In this document: positions 50-23,593 of the stretch, one piece after another
Numbering within the stretch: the stretch's first letter is position 1
Layout of the letters: each line of letters starts with the position of its first letter
DNA from: a virus
Virus genome (UHGV): UHGV-0127092
DNA: 42,338 nucleotides
Strand: one strand, 5' to 3'
The notes under the pieces: model-generated
The model's database searches: none
What the model was told of the DNA's origin: nothing
Seen by the model: only the letters and a program-made list of their open reading frames with translations
Translations under genes and position numbers: made by a program

Positions 50-598
50 TCAGCTAGCTGGAAACTTTTTATACAGAGTTGAGAGCCCTACTCCATACGT
101 TTTTGATACGCTTTGTCGTGATTCACCGGTTGCCATCCGCTCCCCCATTTCCCGCCATTGCTCATCCGTGAACTTAGGCCTGCGACCACCAACTCGCCAT
201 TTTGCCCTGGCTACGGCCAGCCCTGCTAAGGTACGTTCGCTATTAAGATCAGATTCATATTGTGCTGCGGAAAGGATGTTACGAAAGTTATAGCGGCCGC
301 TGGCTGTTTTGAGATCCACGCCATCGGTAATACTGCGGAAGTTGATACCCTTTTCCTGTAACTGCTGGAACATCAACAGCGCATGCAGAACGTTGCGGCC
401 TATCCTGTCCAGCTTCCACACCACCAGTGTATCGCCCGCATTCAGAGTCCGCAGAAGCTTTTTGAGCGCTGGCCGGTTCGCTACCGTCCCGCTCATTTTT
501 TCTTCAAAAACCTGTTCACATCCTGCGCGTTCGAGTGCTTGGCGCTGGAGATCTGTATTTTGGTCATTTGTTGACACCCTTACATAGCCAATTTGCAT
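50..598 (-). CDS. Serine recombinase, DNA invertase of the Hin/Gin/Pin/Cin family
   Basis: N-terminal MQIGYVRVSTNDQ catalytic-serine motif, LVVWKLDRIGR, C-terminal HTH (GLSTLYKKF), about 180 aa. Start moved from track 607 (GTG) to ATG at about 598, preceded by GGGTGA. Confidence 0.9.
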   Translation of the reverse strand: MQIGYVRVSTNDQNTDLQRQALERAGCEQVFEEKMSGTVANRPALKKLLRTLNAGDTLVVWKLDRIGRNVLHALLMFQQLQEKGINFRSITDGVDLKTASGRYNFRNILSAAQYESDLNSERTLAGLAVARAKWRVGGRRPKFTDEQWREMGERMATGESRQSVSKTYGVGLSTLYKKFPAS

Positions 599-603
599 AT
601 TTT

Positions 604-906
604 TCACCCAGTTATTTCTGCAAAAAAATCAGGTGAAGTTATCGGCCAGGCCGCTCGAGAGCAATCTATAAAACGTCCGTTTGGATTGAACATCAGCCAC
701 GTCTTGTCATCGCTGTGGTCTGTCGAAGCGTCACGGAAGCAACGGGAATAGCGTGCAATCCACTGATTCGCCTCTGCATTAGAAAGATGCCAGTTCACTT
801 TCTCCAGCTCTCTGACGAAATCAGACGTTCTCACAGACCTGCGGCCTGACCTTTCATGCACTATTGCTGCCCGGAAGGCTAGCTCCATATCTGAACGACG
901 CGGCAT
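604..906 (-). CDS. Hypothetical protein, candidate SOS-regulated gene translationally coupled to the invertase
   Basis: ORF on minus strand; stop TGA lies 5 nt upstream of the invertase ATG; LexA-box-like palindrome 19-38 nt upstream of the proposed ATG (MPRRSDMELAF...). Track start 948 would place the palindrome inside the ORF. No family recognised. Confidence 0.5.
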   Translation of the reverse strand: MPRRSDMELAFRAAIVHERSGRRSVRTSDFVRELEKVNWHLSNAEANQWIARYSRCFRDASTDHSDDKTWLMFNPNGRFIDCSRAAWPITSPDFFAEITG

Positions 907-924
907 AAAGTTACTCACAACAAA

Positions 925-944
925 TACTGTATATACATACAGTA
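925..944. promoter_or_regulatory. Candidate LexA operator (SOS box) TACTGTATATACATACAGTA
   Basis: CTG-N10-CAG palindrome with AT-rich spacer; one mismatch to the E. coli LexA consensus TACTGTATATATATACAGTA; sits just upstream of ORF 604-906. Confidence 0.6.
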
Positions 945-1266
945 TCATTCACTCCGGCGTTTGTTCAAGATGGGGTGAGCAAAAAGCCATCTAAGCGGGC
1001 TGTTTGCTTGTTATAGAGAAGGTAAGTCGCTCAACCAACTACAAGTTGCATCCTATTTTTAACTTGAGGTTTTACTAAAACCACGACCGACTAATCAGTT
1101 ATCTACTAAATCTTTTTTCCTTAGCGTATTACAAACAGTGTAATAAATTAAAAACGTATAGAGAAAAGCAGAAGCTTTTCACTGATATGCCCTTCTAATT
1201 CAAGCTGCCGCAGCCCGCTTTCACTCTCAATGCAGCTGCGGCATTACTCTTGAAGTTGATTTGCTA

Positions 1267-2508
1267 TCACTTTTCGCCAAGCAATTTAATCAATGTGCGA
1301 AGTTCTTCAATCTCCCTTTGTTGATACTGAACAACTCCGAGAAGGTCCATTACTATGGGGTTAGTATCTACAGATGGGCGATCCCGGTACACTGGTTTAT
1401 AAGGTCGACCAACTTCATCAAGCTCACTGTCGCTGTATTCCGCCTCTGGGTCAATTTCACGGTTATGCTTTATGTATTGAGGCGCAACAAGCTCAGTTTC
1501 TTCCGCAATGATACCGAAACGGATCCTGTGCAGATCATCGTCAATATATTTAAAGTTAACCATCTTAAGCGACATTATTCGATTAAGAGCTTCTTTTAGA
1601 TCGGCTTCTGCAATGTCCTCTTTGTACTGCAGCCCAGATGTCCCCTGCAATGCAAGCGTTCCACTAGTATTAGGGAAATATACGGTCGTTGATCCAGTAG
1701 TAAGAGCGTCACCTCGTCTCCAAACATAAAGAGTACCCTCCTTTTGTTCCAGGCCTATTCGTTTGCCGATCACATCTCCAAGATTGTAGTCTCGTAAAAC
1801 CAAACTGGGATAATTCGCTGATGTAGTGAATCCTTCGTTAATTCCATATGCCGTTATTTTACTTGTAAAAGTTTTTAGTCCAGTTATTTCTTCTGTATTA
1901 TCTATCCCTACAGCTTTAATATTCTTTCTGGCATCAGTATCATTTTTGGCTCCAGTCCCTCCCATGCTTATTGGAATTAGCCCGGAACTATCAACTAATT
2001 CAAGATTTTTGCGAGCCTCAGCCGCTGTCTTTGCGCCGGTCCCCCCCTGGGCAATACTCAGTGCTGTAGTTAACCCTTTCAGCTCTGTGATATCGCTATT
2101 TGCCCCTTTGCGGGCGAGACCACCAATGGCCGGAATGCTGAGGCTGGTGCCGTTGATTGTCACAGTGACCAACTGGTTCGCTGAGGTGCTGGCGAACGTC
2201 TCCCATGCTCCAATGTTCTCGTCATACTCGTTAATGAGCTGCGACATACTTTGCGCCAGGCCATCGACGGAGAGGCTGTCGGTAACGAGGATGCCGTACT
2301 TCTGTCCGCTCAGTGCCGGTGACGCAGCTGGGGTAACGGTTAACGATGTGCCGCTGTTGATAGCGGTAATCTGAAACATCTGGACCGGGTTAGAGAGCAC
2401 AATAATGGTCTGGCTCACGCGAATCTGGCTGGCCGGTGCCGTCCAGTTTGTGCCCGTCCCGGTGGCGGTATTTCCATTAATGGCGATGGTGCCGGTGTTA
2501 TAAAGCAT
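1267..2508 (-). CDS. Side tail fiber protein with C-terminal intramolecular chaperone (peptidase S74-like) domain
   Basis: Repeated GGTGAK...ARKN motifs typical of tail fibers; C-terminal MSLKMVNFKYIDDD...GIIAEETELVAPQYIK...LLGVVQYQQREIEELRTLI resembles the endosialidase-chaperone domain. ATG at about 2508 preceded by GGAGA. Confidence 0.8.
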   Translation of the reverse strand: MLYNTGTIAINGNTATGTGTNWTAPASQIRVSQTIIVLSNPVQMFQITAINSGTSLTVTPAASPALSGQKYGILVTDSLSVDGLAQSMSQLINEYDENIGAWETFASTSANQLVTVTINGTSLSIPAIGGLARKGANSDITELKGLTTALSIAQGGTGAKTAAEARKNLELVDSSGLIPISMGGTGAKNDTDARKNIKAVGIDNTEEITGLKTFTSKITAYGINEGFTTSANYPSLVLRDYNLGDVIGKRIGLEQKEGTLYVWRRGDALTTGSTTVYFPNTSGTLALQGTSGLQYKEDIAEADLKEALNRIMSLKMVNFKYIDDDLHRIRFGIIAEETELVAPQYIKHNREIDPEAEYSDSELDEVGRPYKPVYRDRPSVDTNPIVMDLLGVVQYQQREIEELRTLIKLLGEK

Positions 2509-2523
2509 ATTTTCTCCAGGCAA

Positions 2524-3891: not shown

Positions 3892-6800
3892 TCAGAACAC
3901 CCCCGTTAATCGGCCAACCTGCACTCTCAGAACGTTGTTGCCATCCTTGACGCTGATTGTCTGGTTGGTCTGCTTCATGGCTCCCTCCCCAGCTGTCGAA
4001 CCGTAGTTCTCAAACGTCCCGGACTTATCCAGTTTCCAGCCAACAGAGCCGGCAACATAATTGTTCGACTGGATGTAATTGCCAATTTTTGCATTGCTTA
4101 TGGTCCCGTCGCCAATGACTGTATCCCTGATAATGGCCTGGCCATTCTGGATAACGAACGGCAGTGTTACAGTCCCGCCGACCATAGTAGTCACGGCGAA
4201 ACGGTCTGCCAGGAAGATTACCTGTGACTGCATGCCGGAGGGTGTATTTTGAACCCCAATACCCATCCCGGCAGCGTAATACTGCCCGTTACTGGACACC
4301 CCCACCTTGATGTTATACATCGCGCTGAGGTTACCGTTTACATCTGCTATAGCCTGTGCGTTGACGTTTATCGCTGCACTGTTTTCGCCTGATTTAACAG
4401 TCAGAGTGTTGATTTTTGTTGCCGAAGCCTGGGTGAAATCAGCAAGAGTTTCTGTCAGGTCCGTTGAGTTAGAGATATTGCCACCAGCTTCTGCATCCAG
4501 TGTGACCAGCGCGCGTGCGACCGCCTGGCTGGTATCGGCAATCGTAGTATCCACTCTGTCTATACTGGCACTGTTCCCGGCGTTCGTGGCGGTCTGCGAG
4601 CGACGGCTTACCACCTGCGCCAGCCCATTCTGAATAATCGCGATTGCCGAGTTCTTCACTCCTCCCGTCATGCCGTCCATCGACACAGAAATCTCGTCGA
4701 TCTTCACTTCGGCCTGAGCCAGCCCGTCAGCGTTCTCCAGGATGTCTTTCGCTTGCTGCTCCAGTTCGTCGTTGGCCTGTTTGATATCGTTAGCCATGCC
4801 AGCAATTTTTTCATTGCTGTCCACAGCGTTCTCGATCAGGTCTTTGAACGTATCGGAGCCTTTCATGTCCTCCAGGATCACATCTGTGATGTCGGAAACA
4901 TCGATGCTGGCCTGTCCTCGCACCCATTCTGTGTACCCTGATTCGTTGCCGCTGCGGTCCACCAGCTGAGCGCGGTACCAGAAAATCTGCCCAGCCTTGA
5001 GGCCCATCTGCTGATATTTGCGCTGCGGATAAGGCACATCGGCCAGCAGCATTGCATCATCTTCGCTACCGGTCAGGCTGTACTGAATTTCCGTCTTCAG
5101 CGTGTCGTCGGTATTCGCCGGGAATCCCCAGTTCAGCTCGATGCCGAAATCCACATTTTCAGAAGCGATGAAGCCAACCGGCTTCGGTGGATTGCCCACT
5201 TTACCCGTAAGATTTACTTCTGGTGATGTCGCCCACACTGATGAAACGTCGCTGGCGTTCACCGCCCTGACGCGGACCAGATAGCGACCCGAGTAGATAC
5301 CCTGCACTTCAAAGCCGAGAGAAGACGTTCGTGGCACACTAATCCAGTTGCCGCTGTCACGCCGCCATTCCGCCTCGTACGCAACTGCACCCTGAACAGC
5401 ATCCCAGGCAACGCGCATGGTGGTAATCGCAATGTTCTGGTTAACCGTAGAGTAACTGTCTACGACGATATTTCCTGGGGGAGCCTGAACCCCTGGCGGA
5501 ATGACACTGACTGGCCGCTCGTCCAGTCTTGCGCCGGTATCAACAGCGGAATAGATATCAGGGTTGTAAGTCGTCCCGGTGACCTCGAAAGTACCGTCGT
5601 TGTTGTCCCGCGTTCCCGTAACACGGAAAAGCGCTATAAACAGATCGTCAGAGTCCACACCCCAGTTACATTCAGCCTCCGGCGTTTCGCTGTATGGTGT
5701 GGTGACAGTGACTGTGTTTCCGTTAACGGCCTGGACGGTTCTGGCCTGAGCTGTGCCTGACGGAAGATTCAAAAACAGCCTGTTACCGGCTTTCACATCA
5801 GCAGCGCGATCGAGGGTTATGTTGCGGCCGTTAACCGCACTCACCCTGCCGCCGATAGTTCTTCCGGCCAGCTCGTTAGCAGCCACGCCGATCACCTCAC
5901 CAACAGGGGGGACGTCCATGCCTGTGCTGAAGGTCACCACCTCGCCGATACCGTTGGTAAGCAGCGCCCAGCGCCCCCGCCGGTTTGCCTCTGACTGCCT
6001 GGTGCAGCCGATCGCAGTCATTTCGAGCTGACGATAATCGAAGCGCATGGCCAGATCGCTATCGTAAACAGGCTCAGGCGTATCTTTGTAGTGGTTGGCA
6101 GGGTCTGACCAGTTCACCAGCGCGGCAGTGTTTCGGGTGGTTTCACTCGGGTCCGCAAAGGTAAATTTACCCTCAACTACGCTGGCGTGGTTATAGATAT
6201 GCCACACATCGCGGGGCATATCAGCCAGGACATACATCTTATTGTCACCCCAGTACGTCATGCCGCGAAATATACCCGCCAGATCACGAAGTACGGTCCA
6301 GGCGTCATTACGGTCCTGGATATAAACGTTGCAACGAAAACGCGGCTCCGTCCCGCTGCCGCCCTTGCCGTCTGGTACCAGCTGATCGCAATACTGGGCG
6401 ATGCGATAAAGTTCCCACTTGTCTATCTGAGTCGCATCGATTCTTTGCCCCAGCCCGAAACGCTCGTTCAGAATGATGTCGTAATAAATCCAGGCTGGGT
6501 TATCCGTCCATGCCCATTTAAACACACCTTCCCATGTACCAGAGTAAGTGCGGGTTTCAGGATCGTAGGTATCAGGTACACGGATGATTCTCCCCTTCGG
6601 ATTGCACACAACCTGAGGAATGCCATTAGGGAACTGCTTTGCGTCAAACTCTACATACAGCAGCGCTGTGTTAACGTAGCGAAGTTTGGCGTCAATAATT
6701 TCAGTTACAGCTACAACGCGCATGGTGTCCACGATATTCACGCTCGTGGAATCCGGCGTGATTCTGCGAACCCGTAACTGCCAGCCAGTCGAGGATTTTG

Positions 6801-23510: not shown

Positions 23511-23539
23511 AATAAAAAAGCCCCGCACGATGGCGAGGC
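23511..23539 (-). terminator. tR'-like intrinsic terminator between Q and holin
   Basis: Minus-strand RNA GCCUCGC-CAUCGU-GCGGGGC followed by U6. Confidence 0.55.
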
Positions 23540-23593
23540 TCTTAATTCTTTGTCGACCTACGAAGCTATGGCGACGATATCATATTTACATGA

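What the first reader, a model, noticed from the sequence alone, without database searches (positions are those of the whole stretch)
604..1000. Near-consensus LexA box upstream of an unknown gene that is translationally coupled to the DNA invertase
TACTGTATATACATACAGTA at about 925-944 differs from the E. coli SOS-box consensus at one position and lies 19-38 nt upstream of the most plausible ATG of a roughly 100-aa unknown ORF. That ORF's stop is 5 nt from the invertase ATG. If the box is functional, both genes would be DNA-damage inducible, which is unusual for Hin/Gin/Pin-type invertases. The unknown protein could be an antirepressor-like or SOS-effector protein; the cI here still carries a self-cleavage domain, so this would be an additional SOS input.
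Basis: partly seen in the sequence, partly recalled or inferred. Interest (0 to 1): 0.7.

Follow-up and report, generated by a model that had tools for sequence, protein, structure and literature searches.

The report
SOS-box gene fused to orphan invertase
The LexA box is real and belongs to a widespread but unstudied phage gene that normally sits in front of a UmuD'-like gene; in this prophage a rare recombination at the invertase's own crossover site replaced the UmuD'-like gene with the invertase, so the arrangement is a recombination scar and not a designed operon.

Summary
TACTGTATATACATACAGTA lies at 925-944, one mismatch from the SOS-box consensus, and is unique in the window (0 of 100 shuffles). 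It ends 18 nt before the ATG at 906. The ORF stop at 604-606 lies 5 nt before the pin ATG at 598.

Residues 1-77 of the ORF belong to phrog_3893, a 79-aa Enterobacteriaceae prophage family with 515 clusters that NCBI names "DNA polymerase V". In 87 distinct related loci, 68 carry a perfect CTGT-N8-ACAG box 12-23 nt (in two loci 42 nt) before the ATG. Nearly all have a TTGAxx -35 hexamer 17-18 nt upstream of the box. In almost every locus the next gene is a translationally coupled UmuD'/HumD-like gene.

In the window, homology to that module stops at base 676. Homology to more than 100 pin loci starts at the same point. Both boundaries fall inside the 2-bp core "GA" of a 26-bp Din-type crossover site. 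The ORF is therefore a chimera with a 22-23-aa foreign tail, and pin is an orphan with no partner site. Only 3 of 5426 complete E. coli genomes have this junction.

SOS-driven read-through into pin is plausible but accidental. I found no support for an antirepressor.

The parts
925..944 (-). LexA (SOS) box, TACTGTATGTATATACAGTA on the coding (minus) strand
   Evidence: It has 1 mismatch to the consensus, is unique in the window, and 0 of 100 shuffles matched. A box at the same position occurs in 68 of 87 distinct homolog loci.
963..968 (-). Candidate -35 hexamer TTGAAC, 18 nt upstream of the box. The first six bases of the box (TACTGT, 939-944) would be the -10.
   Evidence: Read from the sequence. 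Of 64 distinct box-bearing relatives, 50 have a TTGAxx-like hexamer 17 nt and 11 have one 18 nt upstream of the box. The strict consensus scan found no promoter, so this is inferred.
676..906 (-). Part of the ORF derived from phrog_3893 (MPRRSD...FNPNG), ending at the A of the crossover core
604..675 (-). Foreign 22-23-aa tail (R)FIDCSRAAWPITSPDFFAEITG plus the stop codon. This is the native pin leader read in an accidental frame.
   Evidence: The sequence is about 98% identical to the non-coding leader between IR-R and pin in mEpX1, YPE10 and LLS. pLDDT in this part of the model is 51-65.
664..689 (-). Hybrid 26-bp Din-type crossover site TCAATCCAAACG-GA-CGTTTTATAGAT. The left half comes from the phrog_3893 gene. 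The core GA (677-676) and the right half come from IR-R.
   Evidence: Three-way comparison. G678 is specific to the left parent and C675 is specific to the right parent. The site consensus is given in PMC4134206. No second site exists in the window.
604..609 (-). pin Shine-Dalgarno GGGTGA, which overlaps the ORF stop codon TGA
   Evidence: Read from the sequence. It is identical in native pin loci.
50..598 (-). pin-type serine DNA invertase, 182 aa, intact
   Evidence: Pfam Resolvase 1e-38 plus HTH_7 1.6e-9. phrog_125 DNA invertase 1e-74. The same protein accession, WP_016247139.1, is annotated in W619 and in YPE10, and YPE10 still has an invertible tail-fibre segment.
945..1266 (.). AT-rich non-coding spacer between the tail-fibre gene and the box. 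It has no relatives outside the three genomes.
   Evidence: No ORF of 30 aa or more. blastn finds it only in W619, PS3Tanimalfeces2 and CUWW10, and nothing in the phage collection. Homology to L007 begins exactly at the box edge.
1267..2523 (-). Upstream tail-fibre gene with a C-terminal S74 chaperone domain. It has no constant/variable junction site.
   Evidence: Pfam Peptidase_S74. PGAP calls it a tail fiber domain-containing protein. No crossover-like site lies in it.

Best explanation
The box is the operator of a LexA-repressed sigma-70 promoter. The proposed elements are -35 TTGAAC at 968-963, an 18-nt spacer, and -10 TACTGT inside the box. This promoter belongs to a conserved prophage moron whose canonical form is: LexA box, then a 79-aa winged-helix protein (phrog_3893), then a translationally coupled UmuD'/HumD-like gene.

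In this prophage lineage a single recombination joined the 3' end of the phrog_3893 gene to the IR-R crossover site of a phi80/mEpX1-type tail-fibre inversion cassette. The gene's conserved N-P-N-G codons (AATCCAAACGGA) mimic a Din-invertase half-site plus the core GA. The exchange fell within the 2-bp core, most likely catalysed by the invertase itself acting on a quasi-site. This event removed the UmuD'-like gene and the whole invertible segment.

The result is: LexA-controlled promoter, then a chimeric phrog_3893 protein with a 22-23-aa nonsense tail, then 5 nt, then an intact pin gene with its native Shine-Dalgarno.

After DNA damage, LexA cleavage should derepress the promoter, and transcripts should read through into pin. 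Pin has no pair of sites to invert in cis and could only act in trans on other prophages.

Shown here: the box, the family membership, the conserved promoter geometry, the chimeric junction at the core, and the absence of a partner site. Inferred: LexA binding, read-through, and catalysis of the junction by Pin.
For: Box.

Family membership: phrog_3893 at E=7e-32, with 515 clusters, nearly all 79 aa.

Conserved architecture: 68 of 87 distinct loci have a perfect CTGT-N8-ACAG box, most often 17-19 nt before the ATG. A -35-like hexamer lies 17-18 nt before the box in 61 of 64 box-bearing sequences. The downstream gene is UmuD'/HumD-like in 87 of 94 loci. Pin follows only in the window, its identical IMG/VR copy L020, and HK225. 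The HumD assignment rests on NF051876 at 8.8e-49.

Junction: L007 is 94% identical to the window from the box to base 676 exactly, and there it continues with its natural end and a 127-aa S24 gene. More than 100 pin loci match window 1-684/685. Genuine IR-R sites read TTTCCCAAACC-GA-CGTTTTATAGA, whereas the window reads ..CCAAACG-GA-CGTTTTATAGA.

Other points: Din sites are 26 bp with exchange at the central dinucleotide, and quasi-site use by Cin is documented (PMC4134206 and its reference to Iida & Hiestand-Nauer 1987). No second site is present. No terminator or significant hairpin lies between the ORF and pin. Pin is intact.
Against: There are no binding or expression data.

The strict promoter scan found nothing, and the proposed -10 (TACTGT) is weak.

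The left half of the quasi-site matches genuine half-sites only in CCAAAC plus the core. Microhomology-mediated illegitimate recombination could therefore give the same junction.

L007 is a 94% relative, not the true parent.

Serine invertases rarely perform deletions or intermolecular exchanges.

PGAP does not call the ORF.

Pin may have its own promoter in the retained leader, which would make any SOS input minor.
Confidence: 0.7

Rival explanations
1. One reading: a purpose-built SOS operon in which an antirepressor-like or SOS-effector protein and the invertase are co-regulated and translationally coupled.
For: A near-consensus box, a 5-nt gap and no terminator. LexA-controlled small antirepressors outside the immunity region exist in Gifsy phages, 186 and N15 (PMC3121763). 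A second, independent phrog_3893-to-pin juxtaposition exists in phage HK225.
Against: The arrangement is in 3 of 5426 E. coli genomes, and the HK225 type is in 2 of 5426. The junction lies in the crossover-site core, and the ORF tail is the native non-coding pin leader. There is no similarity to the presumed Gifsy-1 GfoA (hhalign probability 0.1%). The usual partner gene is UmuD'-like. The window's repressor has an S24 domain.
Confidence: 0.07
2. The junction is real but was made by RecA-independent microhomology-mediated or short-homology recombination between CCAAACnGA sequences, not by the invertase.
For: The two parents share CCAAAC and GA around the junction. HK225 shows that a phrog_3893-to-pin fusion can arise away from the crossover core, 45 nt to the left of its site. 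The outer half-site positions match poorly.
Against: The exchange point falls in the 2-bp GA block and not in the longer 6-bp CCAAAC block: the product keeps the left parent's G678. By my estimate, this outcome is certain under invertase catalysis and only about 30% likely under a microhomology model. The site is the enzyme's own substrate, and identity of the central dinucleotide is the known requirement for quasi-site use (reference 50 in PMC4134206).
Confidence: 0.2
3. The box and ORF are an inert relic. The promoter is dead or the chimeric protein is unstable, and pin is expressed only from its own leader promoter.
For: PGAP does not call the ORF. The tail is predicted at low confidence. 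The Shine-Dalgarno before ATG 906 is weak (GTGAG). No promoter passes the scan.
Against: The box, the -35 spacing and the ORF are all intact. The box is closer to consensus than many boxes in relatives. The close relative L007 has the same leader sequence in front of an intact operon.
Confidence: 0.12

Closest known systems
Phage HK140 gp27-gp28 (and E. coli prophage loci L003, L004, L007): LexA box, 79-aa phrog_3893 protein, UmuD'/HumD-like protein
   Same: The same gene family, the same box position, the same -35 spacing and the same location between the tail-fibre genes and attP.
   Different: In the window the last 1-2 codons and the whole UmuD'-like gene are replaced by the IR-R half-site, the pin leader and pin.
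Phage HK225 gp28-gp29
   Same: A LexA box (TACTGTATATACATACAGTC), then a phrog_3893 homolog extended to 99 aa, then an orphan DNA invertase, then a phi80-type attP. There is no invertible segment.
   Different: It is an independent event. The proteins are about 40% identical. The junction lies 45 nt to the left of a different crossover site (core AA). The gap to the invertase is 59 nt, and the box is shared with a divergent dinI.
Din-family invertase systems (Gin/Mu, Cin/P1, Pin/e14, pinL of phi80) and Cin quasi-site recombination
   Same: An invertase with Resolvase and HTH_7 domains, a 26-bp site with a 2-bp core, and exchange at the core with a sequence sharing the central dinucleotide.
   Different: Only one hybrid site is left, so no inversion is possible in cis. 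The recombination event here was a deletion or an intermolecular joint. Pin now sits behind an SOS promoter, which I have not seen described for this family (from my own knowledge).
P1 lxr/humD locus
   Same: A LexA site about 19 nt before a pre-processed UmuD' homolog (P1 annotation). HumD function is described by McLenigan et al. 1999, cited in PMC4713147.
   Different: P1 has no small gene between the box and humD. lxr is divergent and larger. The window has no humD at all.
LexA-controlled antirepressor operons (Gifsy dinI-gfoA-irsA; 186 tum; N15 antC)
   Same: A small gene outside the immunity region under a LexA box (PMC3121763).
   Different: No sequence similarity to Gifsy-1 STM2621.1n. 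The usual partner gene is UmuD'-like. The window's repressor is of the self-cleaving type.

Membership tests
SOS regulon / LexA operator | 20-nt palindrome matching TACTGTATATATATACAGTA with intact CTGT and ACAG arms | tested here: met
   19 of 20 positions match, and 0 of 100 shuffles gave a match.
SOS regulon / LexA operator | Operator overlaps the promoter of the regulated gene | tested here: inconclusive
   A TTGAAC hexamer lies 18 nt upstream. The same geometry is found in 61 of 64 relatives. However, the strict scan finds no promoter and the transcription start is unmapped.
SOS regulon / LexA operator | Box conserved at orthologous loci | tested here: met
   68 of 87 distinct loci have a perfect core 12-23 nt (two at 42 nt) before the ATG.
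SOS regulon / LexA operator | LexA binding and damage inducibility | not testable with these tools
   This needs EMSA or ChIP and expression assays.
phrog_3893 (79-aa protein that NCBI names 'DNA polymerase V') | Profile match over the whole domain | tested here: met
   E=7.2e-32, residues 1-77 of 79. All 14 invariant columns of the 43-sequence alignment A2, whose first row is the window protein, are conserved in it.
phrog_3893 (79-aa protein that NCBI names 'DNA polymerase V') | Native C-terminus NPNGG[LIR] followed by a stop, total length 79 aa | tested here: not met
   The window reads NPNGR plus 22 foreign residues, 100 aa in total.
phrog_3893 (79-aa protein that NCBI names 'DNA polymerase V') | Translationally coupled UmuD'/HumD-like gene downstream | tested here: not met
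   The downstream gene is pin. Relatives have UmuD'-like genes in 87 of 94 loci.
Din-family DNA inversion system | Serine invertase with Resolvase and HTH_7 domains | tested here: met
Din-family DNA inversion system | Two inverted 26-bp crossover sites flanking an invertible segment | tested here: not met
   There is a single hybrid site at 664-689. No other match occurs in 42 kb at up to 6 of 26 mismatches, and no matching inverted repeat was found.
Din-family DNA inversion system | Alternative tail-fibre C-termini inside the segment | tested here: not met
   The adjacent tail-fibre gene is a single S74-chaperone type. Compare YPE10 and LLS, which have them.
Din-family DNA inversion system | Fis-dependent enhancer in the invertase gene | not tested
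   The pin CDS is 99.6% identical in DNA to the YPE10 copy and carries the same protein accession, so it is presumably retained.
LexA-controlled antirepressors (GfoA/GftA type) | Sequence or profile similarity to GfoA | tested here: not met
   hhalign probability 0.1% against Gifsy-1 STM2621.1n. Tum and AntC were not tested.
LexA-controlled antirepressors (GfoA/GftA type) | Cognate repressor lacks a self-cleavage domain | tested here: not met
   The window's repressor at 31173-31940 has Peptidase_S24 at 5e-19.

The most novel reading that the evidence does not exclude
The fusion makes Pin a DNA-damage-inducible invertase acting in trans. When the SOS response fires, and with it prophage induction, Pin is overproduced and flips the tail-fibre segments of co-resident prophages, such as the two other pin-type loci in strain W619. 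Host-range switching would then be coupled to induction.

Separately, phrog_3893 plus its UmuD'-like partner may be an uncharacterised SOS-modulating pair, a winged-helix factor working with a non-catalytic UmuD' mimic, present in hundreds of enterobacterial prophages.
Probability: 0.12. Interest if true: 0.7.

Novelty: new variant of a known kind. Interest (0 to 1): 0.4.

Why it matters
First, it gives a clean natural example of a serine invertase, or at least its crossover site, creating a mosaic joint in a lambdoid phage. The exchange can be mapped to the 2-bp core.

Second, it points to a conserved, mis-named and unstudied SOS-controlled phage operon (LexA box, winged-helix protein, UmuD'-like protein). 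The function of this operon bears on how prophages tune SOS mutagenesis or RecA activity.

Third, if read-through is real, it would be the first Din-type invertase wired to the SOS response, although by accident and in very few strains.

For annotation, the 79-aa family should not be called "DNA polymerase V", and the ORF in these three genomes is currently unannotated.

Tried and rejected
- Pfam, NCBIfam and PADLOC gave nothing for the ORF or its homologs.
- The antirepressor idea: there is no similarity to the gene after dinI in Gifsy-1.
- P1 lxr as a homolog: lxr is divergent from humD and unrelated in arrangement, and P1 was not among the 40 of 47 tblastn hits that were listed.
- A partner crossover site or inverted repeat in the window: none.
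- A terminator or structured RNA between the ORF and pin: none, z=-0.75. Rfam found nothing in 1-1300.
- BFVD fold search: the only significant hit, K7P7N3 (99 aa, 36% identity), is probably HK225 gp28.
- Divergent dinI as part of the canonical module: present in only 9 of 92 loci, so it is not general. There is no dinI remnant in 945-1266.
- The longer start at ATG 948: rejected, because it lies upstream of the box and the proposed -10, and all homologs start at MPR.
- A pin promoter in the 599-675 leader could not be identified by eye or by the scan. This remains open.
- The P1 genome paper (PMC523184) is not held.

Full report
OBSERVATION

The sequence TACTGTATATACATACAGTA lies at 925-944. 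It differs from the E. coli SOS-box consensus TACTGTATATATATACAGTA at one position. It is the only match with up to 3 mismatches in the 42-kb window, and none of 100 dinucleotide-preserving shuffles gave a match. The relaxed core CTGT-N8-ACAG occurs twice against 0.67 expected, so the significance rests on the full 20-mer.

The adjoining ORF is on the minus strand. The mechanical ORF runs 948 to 604. All homologs begin MPR..., which places the start at ATG 906, 18 nt after the box. The ATG at 948 lies upstream of the box and the likely -10. The stop codon TGA is at 606-604 and is followed, after AAAAT, by the invertase ATG at 598. PGAP also starts the recombinase there but does not annotate the upstream ORF.

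CONTEXT

The window is a lambdoid prophage of the mEpX1/HK022/phi80 kind. It is inserted beside yciI at the phi80 attachment locus in E. coli W619, PS3Tanimalfeces2 and CUWW10. Read on the minus strand, the order is: J, two small tail-associated genes, cor, a tail-fibre gene with an S74 chaperone domain, 320 nt of unique AT-rich spacer, the box, the ORF, pin, and then the host gene yciI. The repressor at 31173-31940 carries a Peptidase_S24 domain.

WHAT THE ORF IS

Residues 1-77 match PHROG family 3893, which has unknown function and a 79-position profile, at E=7e-32. Pfam, NCBIfam and PADLOC give nothing. A profile search finds 515 protein clusters. Almost all are exactly 79 aa, all named sources are Enterobacteriaceae, and NCBI names them "DNA polymerase V". 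That name is evidently borrowed from the neighbouring gene. The longer members are N-terminal mis-calls or frameshifts.

THE CANONICAL MODULE

I collected 94 loci, 87 of them distinct, from E. coli genomes, GTDB genomes, IMG/VR and phage records.
- A perfect CTGT-N8-ACAG lies within 60 nt upstream of the start in 68 of 87 distinct loci. The 20-mer ends 12-23 nt before the ATG, most often 17-19 nt, and in two loci 42 nt. A few more loci have one arm mismatch.
- The commonest box is TACTGTATATAAAAACAGTA. From memory, this is the E. coli umuDC operator.
- Of 64 distinct box-bearing sequences, 61 have a TTGAxx hexamer 17-18 nt upstream of the box, even where the surrounding sequence is unrelated. 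This implies a sigma-70 promoter whose -10 is the first arm of the box (TACTGT).
- The window fits this pattern: TTGAAC at 968-963 and an 18-nt spacer.
- The next gene starts within a few bases of the stop codon, typically TGAnATG. In 87 of 94 loci it is UmuD'-like. It is either the 127-129-aa HumD type (NF051876 at 8.8e-49) or a 102-108-aa derivative (phrog_3469).
- The exceptions are four loci with no downstream ORF called (three cut by a contig end, plus L085), and three with an invertase: the window, its identical IMG/VR copy L020, and phage HK225.
- A divergent dinI shares the box only in the HK140/HK225 subgroup, 9 of 92 loci.

In P1 the LexA site sits directly before humD, with no small gene between them.

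THE JUNCTION

More than 100 E. coli prophages and the phages mEpX1, LLS, phi80, HK225 and mEp237 match the pin side of the window. The longest matches all stop at 684/685. There the genuine loci carry IR-R of a tail-fibre inversion cassette, which reads (G/A)(T/C)TTCC(C/T)AAACC-GA-C(G/A)TTT(T/A)ATAGAT. This fits the 26-bp Din-family crossover site with exchange at the central dinucleotide (PMC4134206).

On the other side, the closest relative of the ORF is L007. It is 94% identical in DNA, comes from a Logan assembly, and encodes protein P0002. It aligns to the window from the first base of the box to base 676 and no further. In L007 the gene then ends ...AACGGA-GGGATATGA, and a 127-aa S24 gene follows one base later.

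The window reads TCAATCCAAACG-GA-CGTTTTATAGAT (689 to 664). G678 is the left-parent base, because genuine sites have C there. C675 is the first base specific to the right parent. The exchange therefore occurred within the two bases GA (677-676), which is the core where serine invertases cut.

The left half-site mimic exists because the conserved C-terminal residues N-P-N-G are encoded by AAYCCRAACGGA throughout the family.

The simplest history is a crossover between a phage carrying the phrog_3893-humD moron and a collinear phage carrying a tail-fibre inversion cassette plus pin, or a deletion within one genome. The exchange was probably catalysed by the invertase at a quasi-site that shares the core dinucleotide. 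Such events are documented for Cin (Iida & Hiestand-Nauer 1987, cited).

Microhomology-mediated recombination cannot be excluded. It would, however, more often have resolved within the longer CCAAAC block, giving C at 678.

The window has no second site and no invertible segment. Pin itself is intact and carries the same protein accession as the YPE10 copy, which still has its invertible segment.

CONSEQUENCES FOR THE ORF AND FOR PIN

The last 22-23 residues of the ORF, (R)FIDCSRAAWPITSPDFFAEITG, are the native non-coding pin leader read in an accidental frame. A run of 23 open codons has roughly a one-in-three chance of occurring (my estimate). The stop codon lies inside pin's own Shine-Dalgarno, GGGTGA. 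The 5-nt "coupling" is therefore a by-product of the junction.

No terminator-like site was found anywhere in the scanned 500-1400 region, which includes the stretch from the box to pin. The junction RNA is not unusually structured (z=-0.75). A transcript from the LexA-controlled promoter should therefore continue into pin. Whether pin also keeps its own promoter in the 77-nt leader could not be decided.

HOW COMMON IT IS

The junction is present in 3 of 5426 complete E. coli genomes, in one IMG/VR contig, and in a protein cluster seen on 9 contigs.

Phage HK225, and 2 of 5426 genomes, carry an independent fusion of a distant family member (about 40% identity) to a different pin allele. Its junction lies 45 nt to the left of a site with core AA, and the gap to pin is 59 nt.

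Both modules normally sit between the tail-fibre genes and attP, so recurrent juxtaposition is not surprising.

W619 has two further pin-like loci, CUWW10 has one and PS3Tanimalfeces2 has none. Targets for Pin in trans therefore exist in only some hosts.

RIVAL READINGS

I found no support for an antirepressor. There is no similarity to the gene after dinI in Gifsy-1 (hhalign probability 0.1%). The usual partner gene is UmuD'-like. The resident repressor is of the self-cleaving type. A dead-relic reading is possible but is not favoured, because the box, the -35 spacing and the reading frame are all intact.

VERDICT

The box is very probably a genuine LexA operator. The "unknown gene" is a 3'-fused member of a conserved SOS-controlled phage family. 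Its link to the invertase is a rare recombination scar at the invertase's own crossover site.

This is a new variant of known kinds: an SOS-regulated phage moron and an orphan Din invertase. It has moderate interest, mainly for the base-resolved quasi-site joint and for flagging the unstudied phrog_3893/UmuD'-like operon.

Noticed in passing
window 944/945, and L007 at 679: The left boundary of homology between the window and its closest relative L007 falls exactly at the outer edge of the LexA box. Upstream sequences are unrelated, yet both supply a TTGAxx -35 hexamer at the correct spacing. The conserved box may itself act as a recombination linker between SOS-regulated morons.
   Followed up: partly
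L003, L004, L007, L009 and most of L012-L099: NCBI names the 79-aa phrog_3893 proteins 'DNA polymerase V', although they have no polymerase or UmuD similarity. The name seems to have been transferred from the adjacent UmuD'-like gene. Many of those UmuD'-like partners are 102-108 aa and match HumD/UmuD only in the first 25-40 residues.
   Followed up: partly
L008 (HK225) 4240-4660: Phage HK225 has an independent fusion of a phrog_3893 homolog (gp28, 99 aa) to an orphan invertase. It retains about 45 nt of a former invertible segment to the left of a crossover site CTCCCAAACC-AA-CCTTTT, and its LexA box is shared with a divergent dinI.
   Followed up: yes
family loci, e.g. L026-L068: The commonest operator in the family is TACTGTATATAAAAACAGTA. 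From memory, this is identical to the E. coli umuDC SOS box, which hints that the phage operon's regulatory region and its umuD'-like gene derive from a host umuDC locus.
   Followed up: no
window 32239-32254: A second CTGT-N8-ACAG (CTGTAATTTTATACAG) lies inside a DUF6932 ORF (32120-32599). It is within the chance expectation of 0.67 per window, so it is probably not an operator.
   Followed up: partly
window 23517-23590 (-) and 36409-36506 (-): There are Rfam matches to the Salmonella island sRNAs isrJ (65 bits, gathering score 37) and isrB (36.5 bits, gathering score 35, borderline) within the prophage.
   Followed up: no
window 34806-35474 and 36548-39454: The early region encodes an Nmad5 (nucleotide-modification-associated) domain protein and a 968-aa exonuclease VIII-like protein with a PDDEXK (DUF3799) C-terminus.
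   Followed up: no
NZ_CP122503.1, between locus tags QC808_RS12765 and QC808_RS12775: Locus tag RS12770 is skipped exactly where the chimeric ORF lies. This suggests that a gene call there was dropped in a re-annotation.
   Followed up: no
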